Source of the DNA: an uncultured Bacteroidaceae bacterium
GTDB taxonomy: Bacteria > Bacteroidota > Bacteroidia > Bacteroidales > Bacteroidaceae
Assembly: GCA_904502235.1 (NCBI GenBank)
Contig: CAJGDP010000006.1
Span: forward strand, 2,955-66,954
Direction of reading: 5' to 3'
DNA length: 64,000 nucleotides
Below are positions 6,623-38,781 of this stretch, piece after piece; position 1 is the first letter of the stretch; every line of letters begins with the position of its first letter. Position numbers and translations under genes: made by a program. A model generated the notes under the pieces. The model saw nothing but the letters and a program-made list of their open reading frames with translations. It was not told the DNA's origin and made no database searches.

Positions 6623-7210
6623 TTATTCTTCTATTGTGTATATGCCTTTGGTGTTGTTTATCTGCCACACGGTAAGATTCTGGTCGGCTGAGAAGCCTAT
6701 GCCTTCGGTTACCTGGTGGTCGGCTTGTTCTATTCTTATGTAGGCGTCGGAATAGATTTTTTCTTTCTCCTGGTCCCAGTACATCAGCCGGGTGTGGAAT
6801 TTTTCGTCTTTGGCGTTCTTTATGTCTACGTTACCTATGAGTTTCCAGAGTTTCTGTTCGTTGTAGTAATATGCCGTGTCGCACTTTACTGTGGCTTCCA
6901 CGTTCATCTCTCTGTCGTATTTCTCAAGGTAGACGCCTTTCTCGAATGCCCAATGGGGCGGTTGGCGCTTGTCGTAGATGCGCCACTCGTCGGCGATTAT
7001 CTTGTAGCTTATGCGTCCGGAGTCGCTGACGATGGTATTTACGTCAAAGGTGCTCATTACTGCGATGGAGTCGCTGTGCTCTATGGCAAGCATCTTCTCA
7101 CCCGATTCGCCTTTGCACGATGAATGAAAAATCAGTACAACAACTGCCATGATGGCAATTGTTGTACCGTTTATAATCTGTCGTTTCTTATCTGATAGTA
7201 GTTGTCTCAT
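6623..7210 (-). CDS. lptC: LptC-like periplasmic LPS-export protein (tentative)
   Basis: 195 aa with a single N-terminal anchor (TTIAIMAVVVLIF) and a beta-rich body. It sits directly upstream of the CNNM/GldE-like gene, which is the usual LptC position in Bacteroidetes. Confidence 0.5.
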   Translation of the reverse strand: MRQLLSDKKRQIINGTTIAIMAVVVLIFHSSCKGESGEKMLAIEHSDSIAVMSTFDVNTIVSDSGRISYKIIADEWRIYDKRQPPHWAFEKGVYLEKYDREMNVEATVKCDTAYYYNEQKLWKLIGNVDIKNAKDEKFHTRLMYWDQEKEKIYSDAYIRIEQADHQVTEGIGFSADQNLTVWQINNTKGIYTIEE

Positions 7211-26369: not shown

Positions 26370-28202
26370 ATGAAAAAACTTTCATTTGCAGTTTTTGCGT
26401 CTTTCTCTTTTTTGTTGGCATCGTGCAATTGCGAAAAAGTCTATAACGCATCGGATTTTGGAATAGTTCCAGGAACGGGAGAGGATATGACCGAGGAGAT
26501 TGCCAAGGCTATTGAAACCATCAAGACGGAGCGTGCCGGCAAACCGGCAGTCCTTCTGTTTGAAGGTGGTGAATACGATTTTTATCCCGACAGTGCCAAT
26601 GTCCGTGAGTATTATATCTCCAACCACGATCAGGACAATCCAAAGAGAGTTGCTGTTGTACTTGAAGGCGTAAAGAATCTCACACTCAAGGGAAAAGATA
26701 AAGGTATGGATGCGCGTCATGCCGAATTTATGATGAATGGCAGAATGTTGCCTATTGCCATGGTGGGCTGTGAGAACTGTAAACTGGATTTCATTGCCGT
26801 GGATACACGTGTTCCGCAGATTACACAGGTAGAGGTTCTGGAGAATGATGCCGAGAACGGATATATAACCTACAGAATTGCACCATACGTAAATTACAGG
26901 ATAGATAACGGTCGTCTGATTGTATATGGCAGCAATTGGGAAATCAATCCCGGTTGGGGTATCGCATTCGACGGCACTACCAAGCATATAATTTACACTA
27001 CAAGTGATATTTGGGTGGGTACACAGAGTGTGGAGGAGGTCTCTCCCCGTGTCATCCGTGCTCCTTGGCGCGATGCCCGTCTGCTCCCCGGAACAGTCAT
27101 AGCAATGCGTTCTTACGCCCGTCCCACTCCGGGTATATTCGTTTCGGAGTGCAAAAATACAGTCCTTAAACACACAAGAGTATACTATGCCGAGGGTATG
27201 GGTCTGCTTGCTCAGATGAGTGAGAATATAACACTCGACGGCTTCAAGGTTTTGTTGGGTGATGACAGATATTTTACCACACAGGCCGATGCAACCCACT
27301 TCTCGGGATGCAAGGGCAAGATAGAGTCGCTTAACGGACTTTACGAGGGTATGATGGACGATGCCATCAATGTTCACGGTACATATCTGCGTGTGGTGCA
27401 GCGTCTTGACGACAATACCCTGGTGGGCAGATACATGCATGGTCAGGCATACGGCTTCTATTGGGGCGGAGCAGGCGACAGTGTGCAGTTTGTACGTTCC
27501 GACGTTATGGAAATCACCGAAGGCAACCGTGTCGTTGAAATTACTCCTTACGACAAGGAACAGCTTGCCGGTTGCAAAGAGTTCAGGATAAAGTTCGAGA
27601 AACCGCTTCCTGCCGATATTGCCAACGGCAAGTACGGTATTGAGAATCTGGAATGGACTCCCGAGGTGCTTTTCAGCGGTAACACCATACGTAACAACCG
27701 CGCTCGTGGTGCATTGTTCAGTACACCCAAGAGCACTGTTGTTGAGAACAACCTGTTCGACCACACATCGGGTACTGCAATATTGCTATGCGGTGATTGC
27801 AACGGATGGTTCGAAACCGGTGCCTGTCGCGATGTCGTAATCCGTAACAACCGTTTTGTGAATGCTCTTACAAGTATGTTCCAGTTTACAAACGGTATAA
27901 TATCAATCTATCCCGAAATACCCGACCTTGCGTCGCAGACAAAATATTTCCATGGCGGAAACGGAAAGGGTGTTGTGATAGAGAACAATACATTCGAGAC
28001 ATTCGATGCGCCTATCGTGTATGCGAAATCGCTCGACGGACTTGTGTTCCGCAACAACAGAATAATACAGAACAACGATTTCAAGCCTTTCCACTGGAAC
28101 CGTTACCGTTTTCTGCTTGAAAAGGTTGTGGGAGTAACCATTGAAAACAATGAATTCGATGGCGGATTCGACAAGGATAAAGATGTAATGATACGTAATT
28201 GA
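26370..28202 (+). CDS. GH110-like alpha-1,3-galactosidase (right-handed beta-helix lipoprotein)
   Basis: Lipoprotein signal ...LLASCNC. YNASDFGIVPGTGEDMT...VREYYISNHDQDNPKRVAVVLEGVKNLTLKG matches my memory of GH110 N-terminal regions. Repeated NN-containing parallel beta-helix turns (IRNNRARGALF, VENNLFDHTSG, IRNNRFVN, IENNTF, FRNNRI, IENNEF). Confidence 0.65.
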   Translation: MKKLSFAVFASFSFLLASCNCEKVYNASDFGIVPGTGEDMTEEIAKAIETIKTERAGKPAVLLFEGGEYDFYPDSANVREYYISNHDQDNPKRVAVVLEGVKNLTLKGKDKGMDARHAEFMMNGRMLPIAMVGCENCKLDFIAVDTRVPQITQVEVLENDAENGYITYRIAPYVNYRIDNGRLIVYGSNWEINPGWGIAFDGTTKHIIYTTSDIWVGTQSVEEVSPRVIRAPWRDARLLPGTVIAMRSYARPTPGIFVSECKNTVLKHTRVYYAEGMGLLAQMSENITLDGFKVLLGDDRYFTTQADATHFSGCKGKIESLNGLYEGMMDDAINVHGTYLRVVQRLDDNTLVGRYMHGQAYGFYWGGAGDSVQFVRSDVMEITEGNRVVEITPYDKEQLAGCKEFRIKFEKPLPADIANGKYGIENLEWTPEVLFSGNTIRNNRARGALFSTPKSTVVENNLFDHTSGTAILLCGDCNGWFETGACRDVVIRNNRFVNALTSMFQFTNGIISIYPEIPDLASQTKYFHGGNGKGVVIENNTFETFDAPIVYAKSLDGLVFRNNRIIQNNDFKPFHWNRYRFLLEKVVGVTIENNEFDGGFDKDKDVMIRN

Positions 28203-28207
28203 CAACT

Positions 28208-29842
28208 ATGTTCCATAAATTCAAATATGATTTAAGAGGGGTGGAGTTGCCCGAGCGTTTCAACAACCCGTTCCATTATCTGCCTCATCAGTTGTGTGTG
28301 GTGGCAGAAAGAGAACTCCGTATCTGCCTGACAAAGGACCCTTACGTTTTTGCCGAATCTTTTATGGGTAAGATGTATGGTGTGCTTGTGGTTCAGGCCC
28401 CTTCGGGTGAGATTGGCTATCTTATGGCGTTCTCGGGATTGTTGACAGGAAAGAATACATACGAAGGATTTGTTCCGCCCGTATATGACATGCAGCAACC
28501 CGACGGTTATTTCAAACAGGAAGAGGCGTGTATTTCGGCTATAAATGCCAAAATAAGCAAAATAGAGGAGAGTGATGATTATATCTCTGCCGTAAAGGCT
28601 CTGGAAACCGAAAGGGAAAAAGCCAAAAATGCTGTTGCAGAGATGTCGGCTCTGTTTAAAGCAAATAAGGAAGAACGCAAGAGAAGACGCGAAGCTGGTT
28701 TTTTGTCCCAGGAGGATGAAGCGCAGATGGTCAGACAGAGTCAGTTCGAAAAAGCCGAGCTCAAGCGTACGCGTGCGGCATGGGATGCCAAGATTGCAGA
28801 GAAAGAGAGTGCTGTGGCTCTGTTTACAGAACTTATAGAGACCTTGGGGGCAGAGCGTGCCGAACGTTCGGCGGCTTTGCAGAAGTGGCTTTTTGGACAG
28901 TTCAAGGTGTTGAATGCCAAAGGAGAAAGCAAAAGCCTTCTTGAAATCTTCGACGAGAAATTGTCGGTATTGCCACCTGCAGGAGCAGGGGAGTGTGCTG
29001 CTCCCAAACTGTTGCAGTATGCCTATGCCAATTCTTTGAAACCGCTTGCAATGGGTGAGTTCTGGGTTGGAAGGTGTCCTGAACGTGGAGAGGTGCGTCG
29101 CGATGGCTGTTACTATGGAGCATGCAAGAGCAAGTGCGAACCTATTTTGCAATATATGCTTCAGGGACTCGACGTCGAGGATTCTGCCCTTGAAAAAGGT
29201 GGTGATATAAGCAATGTTGAGATTGTTTATGAAGATGAACATCTGCTTGTCGTAAATAAACCTGCTGGAATTCTCTCTGTGCCTGGTATTGTGGGCGGTA
29301 TGTCTGTGGAACAATGGATTCGCGAAGAGTATCTGCATCGAAACGACATTTTTGTGGTGCACCGTCTCGACATGTCAACATCGGGTCTGCTCATTGTTGC
29401 AAAAAGTGTTGAAGTGTACAAGAGTTTGCAGAACCAGTTCCTGAAACGTACTGTAGTTAAGGAATATACAGCCATTCTGGAGGGAGTGCCGGTGAATAGC
29501 GAAGGTACCATAGACCTTCCGCTTGCTTCCGACTACGAGAACCGTCCATGTCAGATTGTGGACCATAAGAACGGAAAACTGGCTGTAACAAATTACAACA
29601 TGCTTGAAATTATACAATATAAGGGCAAGCAGTGCTCTTTGGTGCGCTTTAATCCTGTAACGGGGCGTACTCATCAGTTACGTGTGCATGCTGCAAGCCC
29701 ACAAGGTCTTGATTGTCCTATTGTGGGAGATGCTCTTTATGGAACAAACGGCGACAGGCTTATGTTGCATGCCTCGTCGTTGACTTTTGACCATCCTGTA
29801 AGCGGTAAGAGGTTGGTGATAGAGTGCAAGGCTTGTTTCTGA
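28208..29842 (+). CDS. RluA-family pseudouridine synthase with a ~335-aa N-terminal extension
   Basis: The C-terminal third carries LLVVNKPAGILSVPG, the catalytic HRLDMSTSGLLIVAKS, and GRTHQLRVH. I take the ATG at 28208; the track start at 28199 is TTG. Confidence 0.85.
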   Translation: MFHKFKYDLRGVELPERFNNPFHYLPHQLCVVAERELRICLTKDPYVFAESFMGKMYGVLVVQAPSGEIGYLMAFSGLLTGKNTYEGFVPPVYDMQQPDGYFKQEEACISAINAKISKIEESDDYISAVKALETEREKAKNAVAEMSALFKANKEERKRRREAGFLSQEDEAQMVRQSQFEKAELKRTRAAWDAKIAEKESAVALFTELIETLGAERAERSAALQKWLFGQFKVLNAKGESKSLLEIFDEKLSVLPPAGAGECAAPKLLQYAYANSLKPLAMGEFWVGRCPERGEVRRDGCYYGACKSKCEPILQYMLQGLDVEDSALEKGGDISNVEIVYEDEHLLVVNKPAGILSVPGIVGGMSVEQWIREEYLHRNDIFVVHRLDMSTSGLLIVAKSVEVYKSLQNQFLKRTVVKEYTAILEGVPVNSEGTIDLPLASDYENRPCQIVDHKNGKLAVTNYNMLEIIQYKGKQCSLVRFNPVTGRTHQLRVHAASPQGLDCPIVGDALYGTNGDRLMLHASSLTFDHPVSGKRLVIECKACF

Positions 29843-29875
29843 TATAGCCGTGGTTGTTCACGGTATGGATTTGTT

Positions 29876-29910
29876 GTGGAGATTGTCTAGGGCGATCTCC
29901 ACATTTTTTA
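29876..29910 (+). terminator. Rho-independent terminator
   Basis: gtggagat (29876-29883) pairs with atctccac (29895-29902), followed by attttttat. Confidence 0.6.
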
Positions 29911-29923: not shown

Positions 29924-29932
29924 CAAAAACCG

Positions 29933-29944
29933 TTTTTTTTTTTT
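29933..29944 (+). repeat. T12 homopolymer tract in the 5-prime leader
   Basis: 12 consecutive T, counted directly (cg + T12 + gc), 10 nt downstream of the -7 box. Confidence 0.95.
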
Positions 29945-29998
29945 GCTTTGTAAAGTTTTTGTATCAATGGAATATTGTATATAATCAAATCATATTTT

Positions 29999-32900
29999 AT
30001 GAAACTTAAATTTTATTTATCCGTCTTTTTTGTTCTGTTGGCATGCTTTACAGCAAAGGCACAGCAGGACTATTATGTTGTCCATGGGGCAAATGTCAAT
30101 GTAACCCATGCGGCTCATTATCCTAAGGCTGTGGGTATTGCGAATGTTAGTGGCGACCAGCAGGTGCTCGACAATATCGCAACTGCACCCCGATGCGCTG
30201 CCTATTTCGACAAGACATCCACTGTGTTCAATGTAAAGAGCGGTGAGACTGTCACTCCGCTCATCACCATAAGCGGCGAATGGATGCACGGTTATGTCTA
30301 TGTCGATTGGAACAACAACAAGAAGTTCGATGTAAATATCACAGGCGAAGGCCCTTACATCAAGGGTGATGGCAATGAACTCATGTGCTGGTCGCTCTAT
30401 AGCCATAACGGTAATGGTGACACAGGTTGGAACAGTGCCGGTCTTTATCAGAGCAGTGGTAATGTGCTTGCTCCGGGTTCGTTCCGCGTACCCGAAGGTC
30501 TTGAGGAAGGTTCAACATATCGTATGCGTTATGCAGTACAGTGGAACAGCATTGATCCCACAGGAAGTTATGCCAATTTTATAAGCGACGGTGCATTCAT
30601 CATCGACGTGATGCTCAAGATTACAGGTGTTGCCTCTGAGGACGAACAGCAATCATACCCAATTGATGAGTACAAAGAGCCTCGCGTAGGTACAACTCCC
30701 GATGCTTCGGCATGGAATGTTATCCCCGATGGCTTGAACGCTTCATGGGCTTCGCGCGACGTTCACTATAAACTGCACGAGGTTCCGCAGATTGCTCAAA
30801 AGGATGTTGCTACAGTGCGTGCCTGGAAGGGTGAACGCGCAAATATTCAGGCTGTATTGTTCAGTAAAACCAATCAGGATACCCTCTCTGTACGTATGAC
30901 AGAGTGGAAAAAGGGTGGTGAAGCTACAGGTATCAATGCAGGCGATGCACGCTTTGTGAACTATGTAATTACCGATGACTATGTGGCTTGTGGTAATCAC
31001 CCGATGACTCTTCCACAATGGCTTGTTGCCGATGTAATAGACCAGGACAAGCCTCACGCTGTTCCTGCAATGGAAACACGTCCAGTATGGTGTACTTTGG
31101 AAATTCCTCGCAATGTCGAGGCCGGTGAATATACAACCGCGCTTGAAATTGTAAATAAGGGTGGAGATGTTGTAAAGAGTCTTACGTTGAATGTGATAGT
31201 AGACTCTCACTCTTTGCCAACCGTTGCAGAGCAGAAATTCCACCTCGACTTCTGGCAGCAGCCTTATGCTATCAGCCGTTATTATGGCGTTGAGCGTTGG
31301 AGCGAGGGACATTACGAGGCTTTGCGTCCTTATTTGCAGGCACTCGGTCGTGCAGGCCAGCGCACCGTTACTGCCATATTGTTCTATGAGCCATGGGGTG
31401 AGCAGACACACGACCTCTTCGACCCGATGGTGCAGACAACCAAGAAGAGTGATGGTACTTGGGCTTATGACTATACAGTCTTCGACAAATATGTAGAGCT
31501 TTGTGCCGAGTATGGCATTGATAAGCAAATCAATTGCTTCAGCATGGTTCCATGGGATATGAGCTTCCGTTATTACGATGAGGCTTCAGGCAGTTACAAG
31601 AATCTGTCGACAACAACAGGTACAGCCGAGTACCGCGAATTGTGGACAAGTTTCCTTACTGCTTTCAAGGCACACTTGCAGCAGAAGAATTGGTTCGAGA
31701 AGACTAACATCGCGATGGACGAGCGTGGAGAGACCGATTTGCAGAATGCCTATAACATAGCAAATGCTCTTGGATTTAACTGTGCGCTTGCCGGAAACTA
31801 TCACTCATCACTCTGTGGAACATATCGCGACCTCTGCGCGCAGCTAGGTCAGGAACACCAGTTTACAACACAACAATTGGAGAACCGCAAGGCGAAAGGC
31901 TGGGTAACAACATTCTATACTAGCTGTGCAAACAGCGAGCCAAATATCTACTCAAACTCTTTGCCGGCAGAGGCTGCTTATCTTCCAATCTATGCGGCAA
32001 AGATGAACCTCGACGGTTATCTGCATTGGGCATGGTGCAACTGGGATGAGCACCCACTCACCGACAGCCGTTTCCGCAAGTTCGGTTCGGGCGATACTTA
32101 TTGCTACTATCCCGGCAACCGTTCAAGCGTTCGCTTCGAGCGTCTTATCGAGGGTATACATCAGTTCGAGAAGATACAGATTCTCAAGGAGGAGTACAAG
32201 AACAACAGCGAGAAACTTACTGTGCTCAATGCTTTGCTTGGTCGCTTCATAGGCTCTGTAGCGGGCGAAGAGTGTGCCGATATAGTAAATGATATGGAGG
32301 ACTTCCTTAATGGCAAGGAGGTTGAAGTGCCTGTGGCAAAGGATGTGCAGACAGGATATTATCATATTGTGGGCAAGGATGCATCGCGTTACGAACATCT
32401 GTATAACGATGCCACGCTCACAGGCAACAGCATGCGCTTTACATTGCAGTCCAACTCAATGGTAAATACCAATAACGGTATTTGGCATGTTACAGTAAAG
32501 GACAACAGCAAGTTGGCTATAAAGAACGGTGACGGTAATCCCCTTATTGCCGGTGCAAGTTATGCGGGCTCTGTGGTTGGTTCTTATAACGAACTTACCG
32601 TAGGTAGCACAGTAGACGTGGGCGAGTATCGTTACTACTATTTTACCGAGGCGATCAACTGCACTAATGGCGGTGAAAATTTCAAAGTGAGCGGAGTGCC
32701 TTTCGTTACCACTTGGACAGACGGTGGTGCCGGTGCCGGCGACAATCAATGGCGTTTCGAACCGGTGGATATGGACGGCATGAGTGTATATGATGTGGAA
32801 ATTGAGGGTAGTGATGATGTATATGTTACATACAGTAACGGCTTGTCATCGGAAAAGGCTTTCAATGGCGGTTTCTTTATAACTTCAAACGAGATTGCTG

Positions 32901-35002
32901 CCGATAAACTTTCTGTAGGAATGGTAGGTAACATCCTTAAAGGTGCTGACATAAATATTGAGGGCAACAAAATAAAGGTATCGAATATCAAGCAGGCTCC
33001 AACACCTGTAAAGCAGGACCTTTATAACACAAGTAAAGGTTCTATGACAATTCCTCCTTACCGTATCCCCGGTATAACAACTGCAAGCAATGGTCGTCTT
33101 ATAACTGCAGCGGCACGTCTTGTCTGCGGAACCGACCCCGGTTATGGTCAGGTGGATATCGTTTGTCGTTTGAGCGACAACCATGGCGACACATGGACCG
33201 ATATGATTGATGTTGCTGTGGGTACAGGACGTACTTCGGCAACAGTGAACTATTTCGACACAGCATTCGGTGACCCTGCCATTGTTGCCGACCGCACAAG
33301 CAATGAGGTGCTTATCATCGCCGTTGCCGGCTGTACAGTTTATGGCAACGGAAATACCACACGTCAGAATCCCAATATGATAGCCACAATCCACAGCAAG
33401 GATAACGGTGAGACATGGGAGACCCCTGTAAACGTAACAGAGCAGATATACAGTCTCTTTGATGCAGGCAATCCAATCCAGGCTGCTTTCGTGGGTGGTG
33501 GAAAGATTTTCCAGAGCCGTATTGTAAAGAAGGACAAGTATTACCGTCTGTATGCGGCGATGTGCGCACGCCCCAACGGTAACCGCGTAATCTATTCCGA
33601 TGACTTTGGTCGCACATGGAATGCTCTTGGCGGAGCTTCGGCTCTTCCTGCTCCCGGTGGTGACGAACCAAAGTGCGAGGAGTTGCCCGATGGTCGTGTG
33701 ATTCTATCAAGCCGCGTTGGTGGCGGACGTATATACAATATATATACTTATAGCAACACACTTGCAGGTACCGGTTCATGGGGAACATCAGTGAAGAGTA
33801 CCTTTGCTGGTTCTGGTCTCACACCCGGCGGAAACTCTACCAATGGTGAGATTCTTGTTGTACCTGTGCAGCGCAACAGCGACGGCAAGGATATGTATCT
33901 TGCCCTGCAGTCGTTGCCCACCGGTAGCGGACGTACAAATGTGGGTATCTTCTATAAAGAGTTGACCGATGTTACCGATATCAACACTGTTGCGAACTTT
34001 GCTGACGGCTGGAACGGTTTCTATCAGGTAAGCAACACGGCATCGGCATACAGCTCTATGGATTTGCAGGCTGACAATAGAATAGGTTTCATCTATGAGG
34101 AGACACTTACAAAGCATGGTACTGTGCAGAACCCTGTTTCTACAAGTTTCCCCACTGGCGCTGGAACCCACAACTATGACGGCTTTGACAATATCTATGT
34201 TGCATACGACCTTGAGTATATTACTAATGGCGCATACAGCATAAAAAGAGATGTCGACCGTAGAGAATTTGTACGCGACTATTTCACCGCACTTGTTCAG
34301 AACGAACCGACAGAGGTTAAGGATGCTGTTACGGATGCCCTGAATGCATTGAGCAAGGAACCTACAGTTGTTGAAATAGACAATGTATATAAGGCTTTTA
34401 AAGCTCTTGAACCTGCCGACAAATGGGATGGCAAGTTGCTTACGTTTACTAATGTCCAGCAGAATGGCACAGAGCGTACTCTTTATATAGATAACAATAA
34501 CGTGCTGAACCTTAGCACATCCACCCCGGAGGAGTTGGGGGTGGCAGCCCAGTTTCTCTGTACAAAGGAGATGAGCGGAAAGTATAGCTTCTATAACGAA
34601 GATAAGAAACTGTATATGATATGGCGTGCCGGCAACAATTATGGTTATAATAACAACACTGGAACACTTGCTGCATACAATGCCACATATTGTGATTGGA
34701 GCATAAATAATGGAAGTGTTGCCGATGCATACTATCTGGTGAGTAAAAGAAATGATGGTTCAACAGATGGCTCGTTGATAGTTATGGCTTCGGGTGCTTT
34801 CGATGCATTTTCGGCTTCCGAGGGTTATACATCCACTTACAGTAATCTTTTTCGTATAGATGTTATTGAGAATGCTACTTCGATAACTGATGTCAAAGAG
34901 AATCCTGTTGCGAACGGTATTTATGACCTTCAAGGGCGCAAGGTTGAAAAAGCAGAAAAAGGGATTTATATAATCAATGGAAAGAAGATTTTGGTAAAGT
35001 AA
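29999..35002 (+). CDS. Multidomain T9SS-exported glycosidase: N-terminal GEVED-like module, GH123-like (DUF4091) module, GH33 sialidase, T9SS C-terminal domain
   Basis: ATG at 29999 gives signal peptide MKLKFYLSVFFVLLACFTAKAQQ. DUF4091/GH123-like block: FHLDFWQQPYAISRYYGVERW... from 31238, with an Asp-Glu pair in NIAMDERGE (31718-31723). Sialidase features: YRIP (33059-33070), Asp-boxes SDNHGDTW (33173-33196), SKDNGETW (33395-33418) and SDDFGRTW (33596-33619), and YSSM...GFIYEE (34049-34102). The C-terminus is IYDLQGRKVEKAEKGIYIINGKKILVK. Confidence 0.85.
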   Translation: MKLKFYLSVFFVLLACFTAKAQQDYYVVHGANVNVTHAAHYPKAVGIANVSGDQQVLDNIATAPRCAAYFDKTSTVFNVKSGETVTPLITISGEWMHGYVYVDWNNNKKFDVNITGEGPYIKGDGNELMCWSLYSHNGNGDTGWNSAGLYQSSGNVLAPGSFRVPEGLEEGSTYRMRYAVQWNSIDPTGSYANFISDGAFIIDVMLKITGVASEDEQQSYPIDEYKEPRVGTTPDASAWNVIPDGLNASWASRDVHYKLHEVPQIAQKDVATVRAWKGERANIQAVLFSKTNQDTLSVRMTEWKKGGEATGINAGDARFVNYVITDDYVACGNHPMTLPQWLVADVIDQDKPHAVPAMETRPVWCTLEIPRNVEAGEYTTALEIVNKGGDVVKSLTLNVIVDSHSLPTVAEQKFHLDFWQQPYAISRYYGVERWSEGHYEALRPYLQALGRAGQRTVTAILFYEPWGEQTHDLFDPMVQTTKKSDGTWAYDYTVFDKYVELCAEYGIDKQINCFSMVPWDMSFRYYDEASGSYKNLSTTTGTAEYRELWTSFLTAFKAHLQQKNWFEKTNIAMDERGETDLQNAYNIANALGFNCALAGNYHSSLCGTYRDLCAQLGQEHQFTTQQLENRKAKGWVTTFYTSCANSEPNIYSNSLPAEAAYLPIYAAKMNLDGYLHWAWCNWDEHPLTDSRFRKFGSGDTYCYYPGNRSSVRFERLIEGIHQFEKIQILKEEYKNNSEKLTVLNALLGRFIGSVAGEECADIVNDMEDFLNGKEVEVPVAKDVQTGYYHIVGKDASRYEHLYNDATLTGNSMRFTLQSNSMVNTNNGIWHVTVKDNSKLAIKNGDGNPLIAGASYAGSVVGSYNELTVGSTVDVGEYRYYYFTEAINCTNGGENFKVSGVPFVTTWTDGGAGAGDNQWRFEPVDMDGMSVYDVEIEGSDDVYVTYSNGLSSEKAFNGGFFITSNEIAADKLSVGMVGNILKGADINIEGNKIKVSNIKQAPTPVKQDLYNTSKGSMTIPPYRIPGITTASNGRLITAAARLVCGTDPGYGQVDIVCRLSDNHGDTWTDMIDVAVGTGRTSATVNYFDTAFGDPAIVADRTSNEVLIIAVAGCTVYGNGNTTRQNPNMIATIHSKDNGETWETPVNVTEQIYSLFDAGNPIQAAFVGGGKIFQSRIVKKDKYYRLYAAMCARPNGNRVIYSDDFGRTWNALGGASALPAPGGDEPKCEELPDGRVILSSRVGGGRIYNIYTYSNTLAGTGSWGTSVKSTFAGSGLTPGGNSTNGEILVVPVQRNSDGKDMYLALQSLPTGSGRTNVGIFYKELTDVTDINTVANFADGWNGFYQVSNTASAYSSMDLQADNRIGFIYEETLTKHGTVQNPVSTSFPTGAGTHNYDGFDNIYVAYDLEYITNGAYSIKRDVDRREFVRDYFTALVQNEPTEVKDAVTDALNALSKEPTVVEIDNVYKAFKALEPADKWDGKLLTFTNVQQNGTERTLYIDNNNVLNLSTSTPEELGVAAQFLCTKEMSGKYSFYNEDKKLYMIWRAGNNYGYNNNTGTLAAYNATYCDWSINNGSVADAYYLVSKRNDGSTDGSLIVMASGAFDAFSASEGYTSTYSNLFRIDVIENATSITDVKENPVANGIYDLQGRKVEKAEKGIYIINGKKILVK

Positions 35003-35160: not shown

Positions 35161-35778
35161 TTAATAATTGATGAACAGCAGATATTCTCCCGTTGCATTG
35201 ATTGTGAATGTATCGGCGGTACATTCGTTCAACGTTCCCTGCCACCAGTTTGTAAAATCGTAGATGGGATATAATAATCCATTGGCACTCATATCCTTTG
35301 CCGTTATGCTGAATATTGATACCTGTTGACCCTTTCGGCATTTATGTGTTGTTGTGCCGTTGCAGGGGATGAACACTCCATGGTCGGTAAATGATTGGAC
35401 CTCTGCTCCTGCGCGCATATATTCGATGAGCAGGCTTATATTGCCTATTGTGTGGTCCTCGCGCTTGCCTGTAGCGGAAACTATGGCTATGCGCTTCTTC
35501 CCTTGTTCCATGCAGAAACGTACCGCCTTTGTCTGGTCGTTACTCTCCTGTTCGCTTATTATATGCAACAGGTGTTTGTATTTTTCTTTGTTTTCTGCGC
35601 CGATGGAGTCGCCGTCGCCCACAATTGCATTGGGGATATTGCCTGTTGCAATGAAGTGGTCTGCCGCGCCGTCGCAGCACACAATATAGGTCGCATCTTC
35701 TATTATCTGTAACGGCAGTCCGGCTGTAGGATATTCGCCTCCACCTATAATTACCGCATCAGGATTGTTTATTTTCAT
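35161..35778 (-). CDS. Thiamine diphosphokinase (TPK)
   Basis: IIGGGEYP..., VCCDGAADH, AIVGDGDSI; 205 aa. Confidence 0.85.
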   Translation of the reverse strand: MKINNPDAVIIGGGEYPTAGLPLQIIEDATYIVCCDGAADHFIATGNIPNAIVGDGDSIGAENKEKYKHLLHIISEQESNDQTKAVRFCMEQGKKRIAIVSATGKREDHTIGNISLLIEYMRAGAEVQSFTDHGVFIPCNGTTTHKCRKGQQVSIFSITAKDMSANGLLYPIYDFTNWWQGTLNECTADTFTINATGEYLLFINY

Positions 35779-36352
35779 ACTGCATCAACTTTTTCCATTT
35801 GAAGTATCCAAAGATAGCAATTATTGCATAAAGAATATATAGCGCAGCTGTAAAATACAACTCTTTGTAGATATACAGTGCGCTGCTCGAAATATCAACC
35901 ACGCACCACACCCACCATTGCTCAATATACTTGCGTGCAAGCATCCACATTCCTACAATGCTCAACGCTGTTGTAAATGAGTCGGCGATGGGTACGGTGC
36001 TGTCGGTGTGGTTGACAAGTAACCATGCTATAAGGAACTGTGCAACAATGTATGTCGAAATTATTTTGGCAAAGGCTTTTTTAGGCATACGGCTGATGGG
36101 CAGTTCACGTTTCTCTTTGTTGCCTTCGGTGAAGCTGAATCCGGTTTTCCATGCTATCCATCCGTACAATGCAATTACAAGGTAGTAGATGTTTATGCCG
36201 AAGTCGGCATACAGCCCGGCATTATAGTATATGAACAGATATATTGCCGGCATTATTATTCCTGCAATCCACAGATATATACTTGCCTTGTATTCGAGCC
36301 ATATATATATAAGCCCGACCAGGGTTCCCAAAATTTCGATATACAGTTCCAT
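35759..36352 (-). CDS. pnuT: PnuC-family transporter, probably the thiamine-specific PnuT
   Basis: 197 aa with about 7 TM segments and the PnuC-like N-terminus MELYIEILGTLVGLIYIWLEYKASIYLW. Context is TPP riboswitch, TBDT, this gene, then TPK. It overlaps TPK by 20 nt. Confidence 0.8.
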   Translation of the reverse strand: MELYIEILGTLVGLIYIWLEYKASIYLWIAGIIMPAIYLFIYYNAGLYADFGINIYYLVIALYGWIAWKTGFSFTEGNKEKRELPISRMPKKAFAKIISTYIVAQFLIAWLLVNHTDSTVPIADSFTTALSIVGMWMLARKYIEQWWVWCVVDISSSALYIYKELYFTAALYILYAIIAIFGYFKWKKLMQYENKQS

Positions 36353-36356
36353 TGTA

Positions 36357-38579
36357 TTAAAGTTCTATGCTTATATGTCCTATTGCATTTATACCTGCCT
36401 GTGCGGCATATCCGGCGTAGTTGTAGCGTTGGCGCTGTCCGTTTTCGTCGGTGTAATATCCGCTTCCGGCATAACCGTTGTTCTCGTACTCTTCGTTGAA
36501 CAGGTTATATATTGTTGCGCCCACAGTGATGTTTTTCACACCTTTCAATTTGAATGAGTAAGCCAATCGCAGGTTCGTTACAAAATAGGCATCAAGGATA
36601 TGTTCCTCGATTCCGTAATTGCTCATATACTGTTTGCTCACATATTGGGATTGCAATGCGGCTTCCAAACCTTTCCATTCATAAGAAAAGCTGTTGTTTA
36701 CAATAATGTCGGGCGAAAAGGCAAGCGGAGTGTTGTCGTGGTGGATTTCCCACTTTTCATAAGTGTAGTCGTCGTACAGAACCTCGGTGAAATCCTTTAT
36801 CCTGTTACGGCTGAATGTTGCATTGGCATTCCAACGGAATCCGCATTTGAGTGCAATTCCTGCGGTGAGCTCAATTCCTGCACGATAGCTTTTGGGAATG
36901 TTGGCTGTAAGCGGTTCGCCAATCTCGTTCAGTTCGCCGGTGAGAACCAATTGGTTCTTGTAGTCCATGAAATAGAGATTTGCTCCGGCATTGAATATAC
37001 CTTTAGACAGGTTGTAGCCTATTTCGTAGTCGATAAGTCTTTCTGCTTTGGGGCGTTCGTTGAGCTTGCCGTCGGTGTAGTTGTTGCGTGTGGGCTCTTT
37101 GTGCGCAACGCTTGCCGATGCAAAGAGTCTGTTGCTGTTGTCTATCTGCCACGAAATTCCTGCCTTGGGATTTAAGAAGTCGAACTTTTCATCTATCTCC
37201 AGGTTTTGCAGGGCATCTGTTGCGTCGTTCCATTTGTCGTTGTTGCCGTCTATGGTGTAGCGTATATGGCGATATTGCAGGTCGGCATATATGTTCAGAC
37301 ATTCCATTGCCTTGTAGTCGGCTTTCAGGTATATGTTCATGTCGTTCTTGCCACCGTTGTTGCGGTAATACTCATGGTCGGGCACAAGGTTACCAATGTA
37401 ATCCTTTACCCAAAGGACCTGCCCGAAATGTCTTCCGAAGTATCTGTTTGCACCGCCACCCAATATGGTGTGAATGCGGCTGTTCTTATATGACAACGAG
37501 AATACTGCTCCGCCAAAATGGTTGTCCATGGCTTTTTTGCGTATAAGGTCGCTCTTCTTTACATTGTTGCCGTCGAGAGTGAATGGCTGCAGGGCATATT
37601 CTTTCAGTTTGCGTCCGGTTTTGTATTCCTGATAATATCCGTCGCCCTTGGTGTAGTGCAAGCCTATGTTCATGTTCAGGGTGTTGCTGAAACTATGGTC
37701 GAACAGCAGCTGGTAATTCTGTTGAAAATAATTGTCGGTCTGTCCGTCATAGTAGTGTGCCTTGCCTGTTTCGTCGGTGAACATATATCCGCAACTGTTA
37801 TAACGTCTGCCATACAGTTCCATTTCCTCTTTGCTTGCATAGTTCCAGGCGTGGTATGTCTCCTCCTTGCCGGTGAATGTTATGAAGCGTAGGGTGGTGT
37901 TGTCGGCATAGTATGCACCTTGCAGGTAGTACGACTGCAGTCCGGCTCTTGCGCGGTCTATGTAACCGTCGCTTCCAATGTTCGAAAATCTTAAATCAAG
38001 GCTCCAATGGTCGGCAAGTATACCGGTTCCGGCAGCAACGCTCTCCTTGTGTGTCATGAATGAACCGAACGAGAAACCGGCTTTTGCATACGGAAGCGTA
38101 TTGAAAGTGCTTGTGCGCAGGTTCATGCTTGCGCCGAAGGCACCGGCGCCGTTAGTGGATGTTCCTGCACCGCGCTGTATCTGAATATCCTTTACCGATG
38201 AGGCTATGTCAGGCAGATTTACCCAAAAGACATTGTGGCTTTCGGCATCGTTCACCGGAATATCGTTTATGGTAACGTTTATGCGAGTGCCGTCGGTGCC
38301 ACGAATACGAAGGCTTGTGTAGCCGATGCCTGTTCCTGCATCACTTGTTGCAATGGCACTTGGAGTTGTCGATACAAGATAAGGCAGGTCGATGCCCGTG
38401 TTCGACTTTGACAACTCCTTTTGACCTATTTCGCTGTATGCCACAGGAGTGGTCTTCGTGGCTCTTACAGACAGGATTTCAACTTCCTGCAATGCCTGCA
38501 GGTTCTCTTGTTCCTGTGCGTGCAGCACAGGAAATGCCGTTGCCATAATCAGGCAAGCGACAATTGATTTTCTTTTCAT
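36357..38579 (-). CDS. TonB-dependent outer-membrane receptor (thiamine-regulated)
   Basis: Signal peptide, plug domain (TSLRIRGTDGTRINVTINDIPVND), and a ~600-aa barrel. It is the first gene downstream of a TPP riboswitch. Confidence 0.9.
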   Translation of the reverse strand: MKRKSIVACLIMATAFPVLHAQEQENLQALQEVEILSVRATKTTPVAYSEIGQKELSKSNTGIDLPYLVSTTPSAIATSDAGTGIGYTSLRIRGTDGTRINVTINDIPVNDAESHNVFWVNLPDIASSVKDIQIQRGAGTSTNGAGAFGASMNLRTSTFNTLPYAKAGFSFGSFMTHKESVAAGTGILADHWSLDLRFSNIGSDGYIDRARAGLQSYYLQGAYYADNTTLRFITFTGKEETYHAWNYASKEEMELYGRRYNSCGYMFTDETGKAHYYDGQTDNYFQQNYQLLFDHSFSNTLNMNIGLHYTKGDGYYQEYKTGRKLKEYALQPFTLDGNNVKKSDLIRKKAMDNHFGGAVFSLSYKNSRIHTILGGGANRYFGRHFGQVLWVKDYIGNLVPDHEYYRNNGGKNDMNIYLKADYKAMECLNIYADLQYRHIRYTIDGNNDKWNDATDALQNLEIDEKFDFLNPKAGISWQIDNSNRLFASASVAHKEPTRNNYTDGKLNERPKAERLIDYEIGYNLSKGIFNAGANLYFMDYKNQLVLTGELNEIGEPLTANIPKSYRAGIELTAGIALKCGFRWNANATFSRNRIKDFTEVLYDDYTYEKWEIHHDNTPLAFSPDIIVNNSFSYEWKGLEAALQSQYVSKQYMSNYGIEEHILDAYFVTNLRLAYSFKLKGVKNITVGATIYNLFNEEYENNGYAGSGYYTDENGQRQRYNYAGYAAQAGINAIGHISIEL

Positions 38580-38690
38580 TTTAATTCCAATTTGTGGAGC
38601 CTAATGCAAAAAATAAATCCACCATGCTCCGTTGTTAAACAGAAAATGGGGATTTTTCCTGTACGCCTACATATATTGGAATGTGTATGT

Positions 38691-38770
38691 AAACTTTTTC
38701 CTACGCCGGCATTACCCGGATCAGGTTCTTGGGTATGATCTCAGCCCATGTATTAAGGCACCCCGTTTTT
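38691..38770 (-). promoter_or_regulatory. TPP (THI-box) riboswitch aptamer
   Basis: The minus strand reads aaaaacGGGGUGCcuuaauacaugGGCUGAGAucauACCCaagAACCUGAUCCGGGUAAUGCCGGCGUAGGaaaaaguuu. All conserved TPP-aptamer blocks are present (GGGGUGC, CUGAGA, ACCC, AACCUGAUC.GG.UAAUGCC.GCGUAGG). Confidence 0.9.
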
Positions 38771-38781
38771 GAAATCTGTTG

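What the first reader, a model, noticed from the sequence alone, without database searches (positions are those of the whole stretch)
29999..35002. 1667-aa T9SS-exported chimera joining a GH123-like (DUF4091) module to a GH33 sialidase
One uninterrupted ORF carries the following parts in order.
- A signal peptide.
- A ~180-aa N-terminal module with GEWMHGYVYVDWNNNKKFD. I call this GEVED-like, tentatively.
- A ~530-aa block (about nt 30700-32300) that I recognise as the DUF4091/GH123-type fold: FHLDFWQQPYAISRYYGVERW..., with an adjacent Asp-Glu pair at 31718-31723. That pair fits a substrate-assisted hexosaminidase mechanism.
- An unassigned ~220-aa stretch (about 32330-32990).
- A complete sialidase propeller: YRIP at 33059, three Asp-boxes at 33173, 33395 and 33596, and the Tyr...YEE region at 34049-34102.
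- Another unassigned ~190-aa stretch (about 34200-34760).
- A Por-type C-terminal sorting domain.
These two catalytic families normally occur as separate proteins. As one surface-anchored or secreted polypeptide they could strip sialic acid and then the underlying beta-GalNAc (ganglioside GM2 or Sd(a)-type caps). I do not know of a characterised enzyme with this architecture.
Basis: partly seen in the sequence, partly recalled or inferred. Interest (0 to 1): 0.7.

Follow-up and report, generated by a model that had tools for sequence, protein, structure and literature searches.

The report
Secreted two-enzyme sialidase/GalNAc-ase fusion protein
This is a real 1667-residue secreted protein of an uncultured hindgut Bacteroidales bacterium that joins an intact beta-N-acetylgalactosaminidase (GH123) to an intact sialidase (GH33), most likely to strip Sd(a)/GM2-type caps from host mucus; one enzyme of this kind was characterised in Bifidobacterium in 2025, so this is an apparently independent second version, not a first.

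Summary
Both catalytic modules are confirmed. Residues 237-744 match BvGH123 (E 2e-128) and carry the Asp574-Glu575 pair. Residues 1002-1369 match the Treponema denticola sialidase Td-NanH (E 4e-63; fold E 2e-33) and keep all six of its catalytic residues.

The fusion is not an assembly artefact. The same single ORF occurs in 59 other species-level Bacteroidales genomes, and the identical protein occurs on an independent assembly.

The "unassigned" middle stretch is a helical linker, a ricin-type beta-trefoil and a beta-sandwich.

The C-terminus is a conserved ~45-residue tail shared by many large secreted proteins. It is not recognised by the T9SS sorting-domain models, so T9SS export is plausible but unproven.

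The claim that no characterised enzyme has this architecture is out of date. SiaBb3 of Bifidobacterium bifidum (J Biol Chem, Dec 2025) is a GH123-GH33 enzyme that degrades Sd(a)/GM2, releasing sialic acid first. Its sialidase belongs to a different GH33 lineage, so the two fusions are probably convergent.

In four related genomes the same locus carries two adjacent genes, and in eight the sialidase half is missing.

Verdict: real, uncharacterised, a new variant of a recently established kind. Interest is moderate.

The parts
29875..29903 (+). Terminator-like hairpin (13-bp stem followed by a T run) between the upstream RluA-like gene and the fusion ORF. Together with the convergent downstream gene, it suggests the fusion gene is its own transcription unit.
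   Evidence: consensus scan only
29999..35002 (+). Whole gene: 1667-aa secreted GH123-GH33 bifunctional glycosidase (stop codon included).
29999..30061 (+). Sec signal peptide, predicted SPase I cleavage AKA|QQ. The mature N-terminal Gln fits the Bacteroidota 'Q-rule' (established knowledge).
   Evidence: Sequence reading. A-x-A|Q is conserved in the consensus of homologues. The Cys in the h-region is not conserved, so it is not a lipoprotein signal.
30062..30706 (+). N-terminal GEVED-like domain (res ~22-236; Pfam GEVED match at res 99-192 = nt 30293-30574).
   Evidence: 27.3-28.9 bits, cut-off 24.4. The same module is found in other sialidase-family proteins (P0132, P0158, P0182, P0217).
30746..31150 (+). 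GH123 N-terminal beta-sandwich domain (res 250-384).
   Evidence: PF22680, E 2e-34; aligned to BvGH123, 5l7r
31253..32185 (+). GH123 catalytic (beta/alpha)8 domain (res 419-729).
   Evidence: PF13320, E 1e-94; 5l7r/5l7v E 2e-128; CpNga123 5fqe E 2e-58
31718..31723 (+). Catalytic Asp574-Glu575 pair of GH123 (Asp stabilises the 2-acetamido group, Glu is the acid/base).
   Evidence: It aligns to the 'MDER' Asp-Glu of BvGH123 (chain positions 361-362 of 5l7v). The DE motif is defined in PMC11087588. It is at least 90% conserved in homologues.
32234..32353 (+). Helical linker after GH123 (res 746-785).
   Evidence: AF2 models. It is also present in the compact fusion P0135.
32354..32773 (+). Ricin-B-like beta-trefoil module (res 786-925), a probable carbohydrate-binding module.
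   Evidence: AF2 model with pLDDT 89.7. Foldseek top hits are beta-trefoil lectins: 3phz E 5e-5, MOA, CNL, PPL. No Pfam hit.
32774..32998 (+). Small beta-sandwich preceding the sialidase (res 926-1000). It probably corresponds to the N-terminal domain of Td-NanH/PG_0352-type sialidases.
   Evidence: Secondary structure. The Foldseek alignment to 10qf covers the whole 500-residue target; the domain correspondence is an inference.
33002..34123 (+). GH33 exo-alpha-sialidase six-bladed beta-propeller (res 1002-1375). It carries the catalytic residues R1022 (YRIP), D1046, E1223, R1239, R1312 and Y1351, and three Asp boxes (1059, 1133, 1200).
   Evidence: NF052328, E 5e-77. (10qf, E 4e-63). (Foldseek 10qf, E 2e-33).. 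Td-NanH residues come from PMC12889680 and were mapped through the alignment. All six are invariant in 27 sequences.
34262..34402 (+). Three-helix bundle (res ~1422-1468).
   Evidence: AF2 model
34436..34867 (+). C-terminal beta-rich domain of unknown family (res ~1480-1623). It is shared with other large sialidase-family proteins and is a possible binding module.
   Evidence: pLDDT ~85-90. (homologous segments in P0128, P0130, P0132, P0212 and others). No PDB or Pfam match.
34868..34999 (+). Conserved ~45-residue C-terminal tail (…TDVKENPVANGIYDLQGRKVEKAEKGIYIINGKKILVK). It is a probable sorting signal, possibly a shortened T9SS CTD.
   Evidence: The same tail ends at least 68 of the other 149 representative sialidase-family proteins (examples). 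TIGR04183 and PF18962 do not match it, and TIGR04183 matches weakly in 3 of 20 related tails. The tail profile hits the C-termini of 4kca (E 4e-10) and 7jvi (E 1e-4), and weakly the RgpB CTD (E 0.15).

Best explanation
The gene encodes a secreted, multi-modular, bifunctional exo-glycosidase of an uncultured hindgut Bacteroidales bacterium.

**Proposed working.**
1. A Sec signal peptide takes the protein across the inner membrane.
2. A conserved ~45-residue C-terminal tail probably directs it to the cell surface or the medium. The route is inferred, possibly T9SS.
3. The GH33 module is a canonical retaining exo-alpha-sialidase of the Td-NanH type. It removes the alpha2-3-linked sialic acid that shields the branched cap GalNAc-beta1-4(Neu5Ac-alpha2-3)Gal, that is, Sd(a)/Cad on colonic mucin O-glycans and GM2-type glycolipids.
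4. The GH123 module then removes the exposed beta-GalNAc by substrate-assisted catalysis, using Asp574/Glu575.
5. The beta-trefoil and beta-sandwich modules between and after the catalytic domains most likely hold the enzyme on the glycan.

**Shown here.**
- The ORF is real and conserved.
- Both catalytic modules belong to their families by sequence and fold.
- All known catalytic residues are present and conserved.
- The two activities are genetically linked, both as a fusion and, in four sister genomes, as adjacent genes at the same locus.

**Inferred.** The Sd(a)/GM2-type substrate, the sialic-acid-first order (by analogy with SiaBb3 and with the inability of the GH123 enzymes NgaP and SiaBb3-GH123 to act on GM2), the binding role of the accessory modules, and the export route.
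For: **GH123 module.** Pfam E 1e-94 and 2e-34. BvGH123 structure E 2e-128 over res 237-744. The DE pair is aligned and conserved. The BvGH123 sugar-binding residues W206, W253, Q256 and W306 are identical (W419, W466, Q469, W519) and W482 is replaced by F695 (alignment read against PMC11087588).

**GH33 module.** NF052328 E 5e-77. Td-NanH 10qf E 4e-63. Foldseek E 2e-33 on an AF2 model with pLDDT 78. R140, D165, E338, R354, R423 and Y463 of Td-NanH correspond to R1022, D1046, E1223, R1239, R1312 and Y1351, all invariant in 27 homologues.

**Functional coupling.**
- 59 other genomes keep the single ORF.
- Four genomes with the same flanking genes carry the GH123 and sialidase halves as two adjacent genes, each with its own signal peptide and tail.
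- A compact 1008-aa GH123-GH33 fusion also exists (P0135).

**Precedent.** SiaBb3 (GH123 followed by GH33, 1753 aa) degrades GM2 and mucin Sd(a) with obligatory sialic-acid-first order (PMC12856340).

**Ecology.** All 31 loci from the ruminant GIT MAG series (RGIG) come from cecum, colon or rectum samples, none from the forestomach. Sd(a) is a colonic mucin cap (PMC12856340).

**Context.** A GH110 alpha-1,3-galactosidase, another host-glycan decapping enzyme, lies two genes upstream (E 5e-210 to 9i4f). It is syntenic in about 24 genomes.

**Lectin-like module.** Beta-trefoil fold.
Against: - No activity was measured. The substrate and the order of action rest on analogy with an enzyme whose sialidase module is only marginally similar (28% identity over 105 aa).
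- The GH123 module is closest to BvGH123, whose natural substrate is unknown. GH123 enzymes also cleave GA2, Gb4 and LacdiNAc-type beta-GalNAc, so the pairing could serve general decapping rather than Sd(a) specifically.
- There is no nan (sialic acid catabolism) or GalNAc utilisation gene and no SusC/SusD next to the gene.
- Eight related genomes have lost the sialidase half, so GH123 can work without a covalently attached sialidase.
- The export route is unproven.
- The hindgut-only distribution could partly reflect which genomes were chosen as species representatives.
Confidence: 0.65

Rival explanations
1. Generalist tandem decapping enzyme. Both modules are active, but they are not specialised for the branched Sd(a)/GM2 epitope. 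The sialidase removes terminal alpha2-3/2-6 sialic acids from many mucin and N-glycan chains. Independently, GH123 removes terminal beta-GalNAc (LacdiNAc, GA2, Gb4-like). Fusion only ensures co-secretion and co-localisation.
For: - The sialidase module is a canonical Td-NanH-type exo-sialidase, unlike the atypical SiaBb3 sialidase, which its authors suggest may adopt an atypical fold to reach the crowded Neu5Ac of GM2.
- The same sialidase module is combined with many other domain sets in hundreds of proteins.
- GH123-only forms exist.
- GH123 enzymes have varied beta-GalNAc substrates.
Against: - The GH123-sialidase pairing specifically is kept in 59 genomes and, when split, the two genes stay adjacent.
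- The pairing arose apparently independently in Bifidobacterium, where it serves Sd(a).
- The branched Sd(a)/GM2 cap is a known natural structure that needs exactly these two activities in sequence (established knowledge; PMC12856340).
Confidence: 0.25
2. One module is a non-catalytic binding domain, for example a lectin-like sialidase or an inert GH123, so the protein has a single activity.
For: - Pfam BNR_2 is just under its threshold on the whole protein.
- Only two of the three Asp boxes are canonical.
- The NCBIfam equivalog cut-off is not met.
Against: - All six sialidase catalytic residues and the GH123 DE pair, plus four of five sugar-binding residues, are present and conserved across 27-40 homologues at 68-90% identity.
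- The Asp-box consensus in relatives is canonical (SDDNGxTW).
- Asp boxes are structural, not catalytic (established knowledge).
Confidence: 0.05
3. Assembly or binning artefact: a false join or an undetected frameshift creates an ORF that does not exist in the organism.
For: - The window is from a metagenome-type assembly.
- Two related loci (L058, L077) do show frameshifts inside the gene.
- Four loci have two genes.
Against: - The identical 1667-aa protein lies on an independent ENA assembly.
- 59 other species-level genomes from many studies carry the same continuous ORF.
- More than 120 full-length protein clusters exist.
- GC content is even across the junction.
- The junction region folds as well-predicted domains (pLDDT 89.7).
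Confidence: 0.02

Closest known systems
[quoted passage not shown]
   Same: - A single secreted polypeptide of similar size (1753 vs 1667 aa).
- The same order: signal peptide, GH123, long spacer, GH33-type sialidase, C-terminal sorting element.
- Three Asp boxes.
- A gut organism.
- The two activities needed for Sd(a)/GM2 caps.
   Different: - The sialidase modules are from different lineages. SiaBb3 lacks the RIP motif and its catalytic residues could not be read from alignment. The window protein is canonical and Td-NanH-like, and pairwise similarity is only 28% over 105 aa (using the Fig. S1 sequence, which is machine-read).
- SiaBb3's GH123 is reported as 36% identical to CpNga123, whereas the window's GH123 is closest to BvGH123.
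- SiaBb3 is sortase-anchored in a Gram-positive wall. This protein has a Bacteroidota-type C-terminal tail, a GEVED-like N-domain and a beta-trefoil.
- The activity of the window protein is untested.
BvGH123 (Phocaeicola/Bacteroides vulgatus GH123 beta-N-acetylgalactosaminidase; PDB 5l7r/5l7v) and Uhgb_GH123 (PMC7531118)
   Same: The best sequence match for res 237-744 (E 2e-128): the same two-domain GH123 core, the DE pair, and pocket-forming Trp/Gln residues.
   Different: Those are stand-alone enzymes of ~560-580 aa. Here the core is embedded in a 1667-aa protein with a sialidase. W482 of BvGH123 is Phe here.
Td-NanH (TDE0471) exo-alpha-sialidase of Treponema denticola (PDB 10qf-10qi; PMC12889680) and Porphyromonas gingivalis PG_0352
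   Same: The best structural and sequence match for res 1002-1369: a six-bladed propeller, YRIP, identical catalytic residues, and an N-terminal beta-domain preceding the propeller.
   Different: Those are two-domain proteins of ~500-540 aa from oral pathogens, studied for complement evasion. The NCBIfam equivalog threshold is not met (260 vs 900 bits), so this is a relative, not an orthologue.
T9SS type A C-terminal sorting domains (TIGR04183 / PF18962; e.g. RgpB CTD, PDB 5hfs)
   Same: The same position at the extreme C-terminus of large secreted Bacteroidota proteins. The motif 'IYDLxGRRV' aligns to 'IFDMNGRRV' of the RgpB CTD. It ends in GxYxx...KKxxxK.
   Different: It is only ~45 residues long instead of ~70-80. 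It is not detected by either HMM, and proteins that carry it are not named as T9SS cargo by NCBI.

Membership tests
CAZy GH123 (beta-N-acetylgalactosaminidase) | Sequence membership: GH123 catalytic domain and N-terminal beta-sandwich above the curated thresholds | tested here: met
   PF13320 317.7 bits (cut-off 23.1) and PF22680 118.7 bits (cut-off 27). 5l7r E 2e-128.
CAZy GH123 (beta-N-acetylgalactosaminidase) | Consecutive catalytic Asp-Glu (DE) motif at the homologous position | tested here: met
   D574-E575 align with the MDER Asp-Glu of BvGH123. The motif definition is in PMC11087588. It is at least 90% conserved in homologues.
CAZy GH123 (beta-N-acetylgalactosaminidase) | GalNAc-pocket residues of BvGH123 (W206, W253, Q256, W306, W482) | tested here: met
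   W419, W466, Q469 and W519 are identical. W482 corresponds to F695, so the aromatic character is kept (alignment read).
CAZy GH123 (beta-N-acetylgalactosaminidase) | Hydrolysis of beta-GalNAc linkages | not testable with these tools
   Needs an enzyme assay.
CAZy GH33 (exo-alpha-sialidase) | Six-bladed beta-propeller fold | tested here: met
   AF2 model (pLDDT 78). Foldseek: 10qf E 2e-33, PG_0352 about 1e-21, M. viridifaciens 1eur TM 0.78 normalised to the target.
CAZy GH33 (exo-alpha-sialidase) | Catalytic set: Arg triad, Asp acid/base, Tyr nucleophile with Glu partner | tested here: met
   R1022, R1239, R1312, D1046, Y1351 and E1223 align to R140, R354, R423, D165, Y463 and E338 of Td-NanH. 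All are invariant in alignment A1.
CAZy GH33 (exo-alpha-sialidase) | F/YRIP motif and Asp boxes | tested here: met
   YRIP at 1021-1024. Asp boxes at 1133 and 1200 are canonical, and the one at 1059 is degenerate in this sequence.
CAZy GH33 (exo-alpha-sialidase) | Pfam BNR_2 above the gathering score; NCBIfam NeuramTDE0471 equivalog cut-off | tested here: inconclusive
   BNR_2 scores 28.6 bits on the whole protein (cut-off 31.4) and 31.6 bits on the isolated module. NF052328 scores 259.9 bits against a cut-off of 900, so it is a family relative, not an equivalog.
SiaBb3-type bifunctional GH123-GH33 enzyme | GH123 and sialidase on one polypeptide, GH123 first | tested here: met
   PMC12856340
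SiaBb3-type bifunctional GH123-GH33 enzyme | Common descent of the fusion (orthologous sialidase module) | tested here: not met
   There is only 28% identity over 105 aa, driven by Asp boxes. SiaBb3 has no RIP motif. The SiaBb3 sequence was taken from a machine-read figure, so this is a rough test.
SiaBb3-type bifunctional GH123-GH33 enzyme | Sequential release of Neu5Ac then GalNAc from GM2/Sd(a) | not testable with these tools
   Needs an enzyme assay.
T9SS cargo (type A C-terminal sorting domain) | Match to TIGR04183 / PF18962 | tested here: not met
   No hit at E <= 10 on the last 100 or 300 residues. Three of 20 homologous tails hit TIGR04183 weakly (best E 0.013).
T9SS cargo (type A C-terminal sorting domain) | Similarity to a structurally defined CTD | tested here: inconclusive
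   The tail profile against the RgpB CTD (5hfs) gives E 0.15 over 22 residues. The tail is ~45 aa, too short for the seven-strand CTD sandwich.
T9SS cargo (type A C-terminal sorting domain) | T9SS machinery encoded in the genome; secretion dependent on it | not testable with these tools
   No T9SS component was recognised among the window's genes. The rest of the genome was not available.
GEVED domain (PF20009) | Pfam gathering score | tested here: met
   27.3 bits (whole protein) and 28.9 bits (segment) against 24.4. The match is partial (profile positions 3-68 of 78).
Ricin-B / CBM13-type beta-trefoil | Beta-trefoil fold; sequence membership; sugar binding | tested here: inconclusive
   Fold: Foldseek top hits are all beta-trefoil lectins or FGFs, E 5e-5 to 1e-3, TM 0.54-0.66 normalised to the single-domain targets, on a pLDDT 89.7 model. 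No Pfam or PDB sequence match. Binding was not tested.

The most novel reading that the evidence does not exclude
Hindgut Bacteroidales invented an Sd(a)/GM2-cap-removing GH123-GH33 enzyme independently of Bifidobacterium, which would be a case of convergent domain fusion driven by one host glycan.

The gene is also evolutionarily plastic. The same locus switches between a fused gene, two adjacent genes and a GH123-only form. The junctions fall at a shared beta-trefoil/beta-sandwich module and at a shared ~45-residue C-terminal tail.

That tail would be a distinct, shortened sorting signal that current T9SS models miss, although it ends a large fraction of the big secreted proteins of these bacteria.
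Probability: 0.4. Interest if true: 0.6.

Novelty: new variant of a known kind. Interest (0 to 1): 0.45.

Why it matters
**Link to the Sd(a) cap.** Sd(a)/Cad caps are a major terminal structure of colonic mucin. They shield glycans from other enzymes and pathogens. Until December 2025 no microbial route for removing them was known, and the only characterised enzyme is from Bifidobacterium bifidum.

**What this family would add.** It would show that abundant, uncultured Bacteroidales of the large intestine carry their own version, built from different GH123 and GH33 lineages. These bacteria come from ruminants and, judging by some MAG names, possibly humans. That makes the two-step 'sialic acid first, then GalNAc' strategy a general solution rather than a curiosity.

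**Annotation.** Public databases label these proteins only as 'DUF4091 domain-containing protein'. The sialidase half, and therefore a sialic-acid-releasing capacity of these genomes, is currently invisible in annotation.

**Evolutionary evidence.** The fused, split and lost variants at one syntenic locus give a natural experiment on the value of covalent coupling.

**Side lead.** The unrecognised C-terminal tail is a lead for secretion-signal annotation in gut Bacteroidales.

Tried and rejected
1. **T9SS CTD by HMM.** NCBIfam and Pfam on the last 100 and 300 residues at E <= 10 gave nothing. Twenty homologous tails gave only 3 weak TIGR04183 hits. Names given by NCBI to tail-bearing relatives never mention T9SS. 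So I did not file the protein as T9SS cargo.

2. **Internal repeat hypothesis.** I asked whether the middle and C-terminal unassigned stretches are copies of each other. BLASTP found no similarity, so this was rejected.

3. **Bulb-lectin reading of the middle module.** The profile against PDB gave only E 0.07-0.18 to monocot lectins. The structure-based search instead gave the beta-trefoil fold, so I rejected the bulb-lectin idea.

4. **C-terminal beta-domain.** The profile against PDB gave only noise (immunoglobulin/TCR hits at E > 0.03), and a Pfam PNGaseA hit at E 0.036 is not credible. It is left unassigned.

5. **Lipoprotein reading of the signal peptide (LLAC).** Rejected, because the Cys is not conserved while A-x-A|Q is.

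6. **PUL or sialic-acid operon context.** None was found. Neighbours are SecA, GH110, an RluA-like synthase, and a thiamine salvage operon (TonB receptor, PnuC, TPK).

7. **Full-length SiaBb3 sequence.** I could not obtain it. Only the sialidase segment from supplementary Fig. S1, with reading errors, could be compared. SiaBb3 did not appear among the best 150 representatives of the sialidase search.

8. **'Split' calls for L058 and L077.** These turned out to be frameshifts inside domains, not clean two-gene arrangements.


Full report
**1. The observation**

The window has one uninterrupted + strand ORF from 29975 (TTG) or 29999 (ATG) to 35002. From the ATG it is 1667 aa. Homologues start at the same Met (MKLK...). 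GC content is even across the gene (0.41-0.50).

- Asp574-Glu575 at 31718-31723.
- YRIP at 33059.
- Asp boxes at 33173, 33395 and 33596. The first reads SDNHGDTW and is slightly degenerate in this sequence; the family consensus is SDDNGxTW.
- Tyr1351 at 34049.
- YEE at 1366-1368.

**2. The two catalytic modules**

*GH123.* Pfam gives Glyco_hydro_123_N_2 (res 250-384, E 2e-34) and GH123_cat (res 419-729, E 1e-94). Against solved structures, res 237-744 match BvGH123 of Phocaeicola vulgatus (5l7r/5l7v) at E 2e-128 and CpNga123 at E 2e-58.
- GH123 is defined by a consecutive Asp-Glu pair: the Asp stabilises the 2-acetamido group and the Glu is the acid/base (PMC11087588). D574-E575 sit in 'AMDERGE', aligned to 'AMDERPM' of BvGH123. 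The pair is at least 90% conserved in homologues.
- The BvGH123 pocket residues W206, W253, Q256 and W306 are identical here (W419, W466, Q469, W519). W482 is Phe695 (one search read).

*GH33.* NCBIfam NF052328 (neuraminidase TDE0471 type) matches res 999-1374 at E 5e-77, far below its equivalog cut-off. The Treponema denticola sialidase structure 10qf matches at E 4e-63.
- An AlphaFold2 model of res 740-1667 (pLDDT 78) finds 10qf at Foldseek E 2e-33, followed by P. gingivalis PG_0352 and the classic GH33 propellers.
- The Td-NanH paper lists Tyr463/Glu338, Asp165 and Arg140/354/423 as the active site (PMC12889680).
- Through the alignment these are Y1351, E1223, D1046, R1022, R1239 and R1312. 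All six are invariant in an alignment of 27 sequences.

Neither module looks inert.

**3. The rest of the protein**

- **Signal peptide.** The N-terminus is a Sec signal peptide with an A-x-A|Q site. That site is conserved in relatives, while the Cys in the hydrophobic core is not, so it is not a lipoprotein.
- **GEVED.** Res 99-192 meet the GEVED threshold (27-29 bits against 24.4).
- **Middle stretch.** A second model (res 746-1000, pLDDT 89.7) resolves it as a helical linker, a beta-trefoil (res ~786-925) and a small beta-sandwich (res ~926-1000). The best structural matches of the trefoil are ricin-B-type lectins: Polyporus squamosus lectin at E 5e-5, MOA, CNL, and the GalNAc-binding PPL. 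The Foldseek alignment to Td-NanH spans that protein's whole length. By inference, the sandwich therefore corresponds to the N-terminal domain of Td-NanH-type sialidases.
- **After the propeller.** A three-helix bundle is followed by a well-predicted beta-domain (res ~1480-1623). It has no recognisable relatives in Pfam or PDB, but it recurs in other large sialidase-family proteins.

**4. The C-terminus**

- The T9SS sorting-domain models (TIGR04183, PF18962) do not match, even at E <= 10.
- The last ~45 residues (…TDV…IYDLQGRKVEKAEKGIYIINGKKILVK) are nonetheless a conserved element. The same tail ends at least 68 of the other 149 representative proteins that contain this sialidase type (examples).
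- A profile of 20 tails finds the C-termini of two solved Bacteroidota-type enzymes (4kca at E 4e-10, 7jvi at E 1e-4). It also finds, weakly, the RgpB CTD (E 0.15): 'IYDLqGRkV' against 'IFDMNGRRV'.
- Three of the 20 tails touch TIGR04183 (best E 0.013).
- NCBI names for such proteins never mention T9SS.
- No T9SS gene lies in the window.

I conclude that the tail is a sorting-type signal, possibly a shortened CTD. T9SS export is not shown.

**5. The fusion is real and widespread**

- The protein search returns more than 120 clusters of full-length homologues at 69-99% identity, annotated at most as 'DUF4091 domain-containing protein'.
- A scan of one genome per species finds 79 loci in MAGs labelled Bacteroidaceae, Alloprevotella, Prevotellaceae, Paramuribaculum (Muribaculaceae) and Ca. 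Caccoplasma.
- The identical protein lies on an independent ENA assembly.
- Classifying the loci gives:
  - 59 with the continuous fused ORF.
  - 4 with two adjacent genes (L056, L057, L074, L078). Gene A is signal peptide-GEVED-GH123-trefoil/sandwich-tail (1037 aa). Gene B is signal peptide-trefoil/sandwich-sialidase-…-tail (~1275 aa).
  - 8 with a GH123-only form that ends in the tail.
  - 2 with frameshifts.
  - 6 cut off by contig ends.
- The four split loci share the window's flanking genes (SecA, GH110, RluA-like upstream; TPK, PnuC, TonB receptor downstream), so fused and split states occupy the same chromosomal site.
- In a neighbour-joining tree of the GH123 domain, the split and GH123-only forms are nested within fused clades. 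This suggests they are secondary, but the tree is crude.
- A compact 1008-aa version (signal peptide-GH123-linker-GH33, with no accessory modules and no tail) also exists (P0135).

Fusion plus conserved adjacency is classic evidence that the two activities work together.

**6. Context**

- The gene appears monocistronic. A strong terminator-like hairpin lies at 29875-29903, and the downstream gene is convergent.
- No SusC/D or sialic-acid catabolism genes are adjacent.
- Two genes upstream lies a GH110 alpha-1,3-galactosidase (E 5e-210 to 9i4f), another enzyme that removes a terminal host-glycan cap. It is syntenic in about 24 genomes.
- All 31 loci from the RGIG ruminant MAG series come from cecum, colon or rectum samples.

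**7. Comparison with what is known**

A literature search found Katoh et al., J Biol Chem 2025 (PMC12856340). SiaBb3 of Bifidobacterium bifidum is a 1753-aa protein with a signal peptide, GH123 (res 281-757), an atypical GH33 sialidase (res 1229-1607, three Asp boxes) and a sortase anchor. It converts GM2 to lactosylceramide and removes Sd(a) from mucin O-glycans. Neu5Ac must be released first, as shown with D617A/E618A and E1430A/Y1558A mutants.

The fusions are probably independent, for three reasons:
- The SiaBb3 sialidase segment (from supplementary Fig. S1, machine-read) shares only 28% identity over 105 residues with the window's sialidase, mostly at Asp boxes.
- It lacks the RIP motif, and its authors could not identify catalytic residues by alignment.
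- The window's sialidase is a canonical member of a large clade: 558 representatives at E < 1e-30, most in other domain contexts.

I could not obtain the GH123 part of SiaBb3. The paper reports it as closest to CpNga123 (36%), whereas the window's is closest to BvGH123.

**8. Mechanism and confidence**

*Shown:* the protein is real and conserved, has two intact catalytic modules, and shows genetic coupling of the two activities.

*Inferred:* sialic acid is removed first by the GH33 module, then beta-GalNAc by GH123, from Sd(a)/GM2-type caps of hindgut mucus. The trefoil and sandwich modules bind glycan. The tail mediates export.

- I put about 0.65 on this overall reading.
- About 0.25 goes to a less specific 'general decapping' role.
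- Little goes to an inert module or an artefact.

**9. Verdict**

The finding is a correct and careful observation of an uncharacterised, widespread enzyme family. It is a new variant of a kind established in late 2025, not a categorically new architecture. Interest is moderate, about 0.45. It rests on the likely convergent origin, the fused/split/lost variants at one locus, the hidden sialidase capacity in genome annotation, and the unrecognised C-terminal tail.

Noticed in passing
window 26370-28202 (+): A GH110 alpha-1,3-galactosidase (E 5e-210 to PDB 9i4f; GLAA-B beta-barrels plus beta-helix). It would remove blood-group-B/alpha-Gal type caps. It lies two genes upstream of the fusion gene and keeps that position in about 24 related genomes.
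   Followed up: partly
window 28199-29842 (+): A 547-aa RluA-type pseudouridine synthase whose recognised domain covers only res 348-500. The long N-terminal extension (~340 aa) has no family match. Its TTG start overlaps the GH110 stop by 4 bases, which suggests co-transcription of a glycosidase with an RNA-modifying enzyme.
   Followed up: no
window 35161-38775 (-): A thiamine salvage operon on the opposite strand: a TPP riboswitch (38679-38775, 56.6 bits), then a TonB-dependent receptor (36357-38579), a PnuC-type transporter (35759-36352) and thiamin pyrophosphokinase (35161-35778).
   Followed up: partly
C-termini of P0121-P0269 representatives; L038 1222-7725 and L041 1081-8187: The ~45-residue tail 'TGI..V...IYDLxGRRV...KGIYIVNGKKVLVK' ends at least 68 of 149 large multi-domain sialidase-family proteins. 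It also ends unrelated 2100-2400-aa neighbours. It is present at the C-terminus of PDB 4kca (arabinanase) and 7jvi. It is not detected by TIGR04183 or PF18962.
   Followed up: partly
L056 6001-12971, L074 6001-12963, L057 2659-7217, L078 3-6280: At the same syntenic site, four genomes carry two genes instead of the fusion. Both genes contain a copy of the beta-trefoil/beta-sandwich module (59-66% identical to the window's single copy). Recombination between these copies could interconvert the fused and split states.
   Followed up: partly
L081 3497-6523 (P0135): A compact 1008-aa GH123-GH33 fusion without the GEVED, trefoil or tail modules. It lies next to a second BNR-like gene (6625-8214, - strand). 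Its taxon is unknown.
   Followed up: partly
L080 1-1204: On the independent ENA contig that carries the identical fusion protein, the upstream GH110 gene is called as two pieces (489 and 108 aa). This suggests a frameshift or sequencing error there.
   Followed up: no
window 29930-29945: A run of 12 T lies just downstream of the terminator-like hairpin and about 55 nt before the start codon. I did not examine whether it is part of the promoter region.
   Followed up: no
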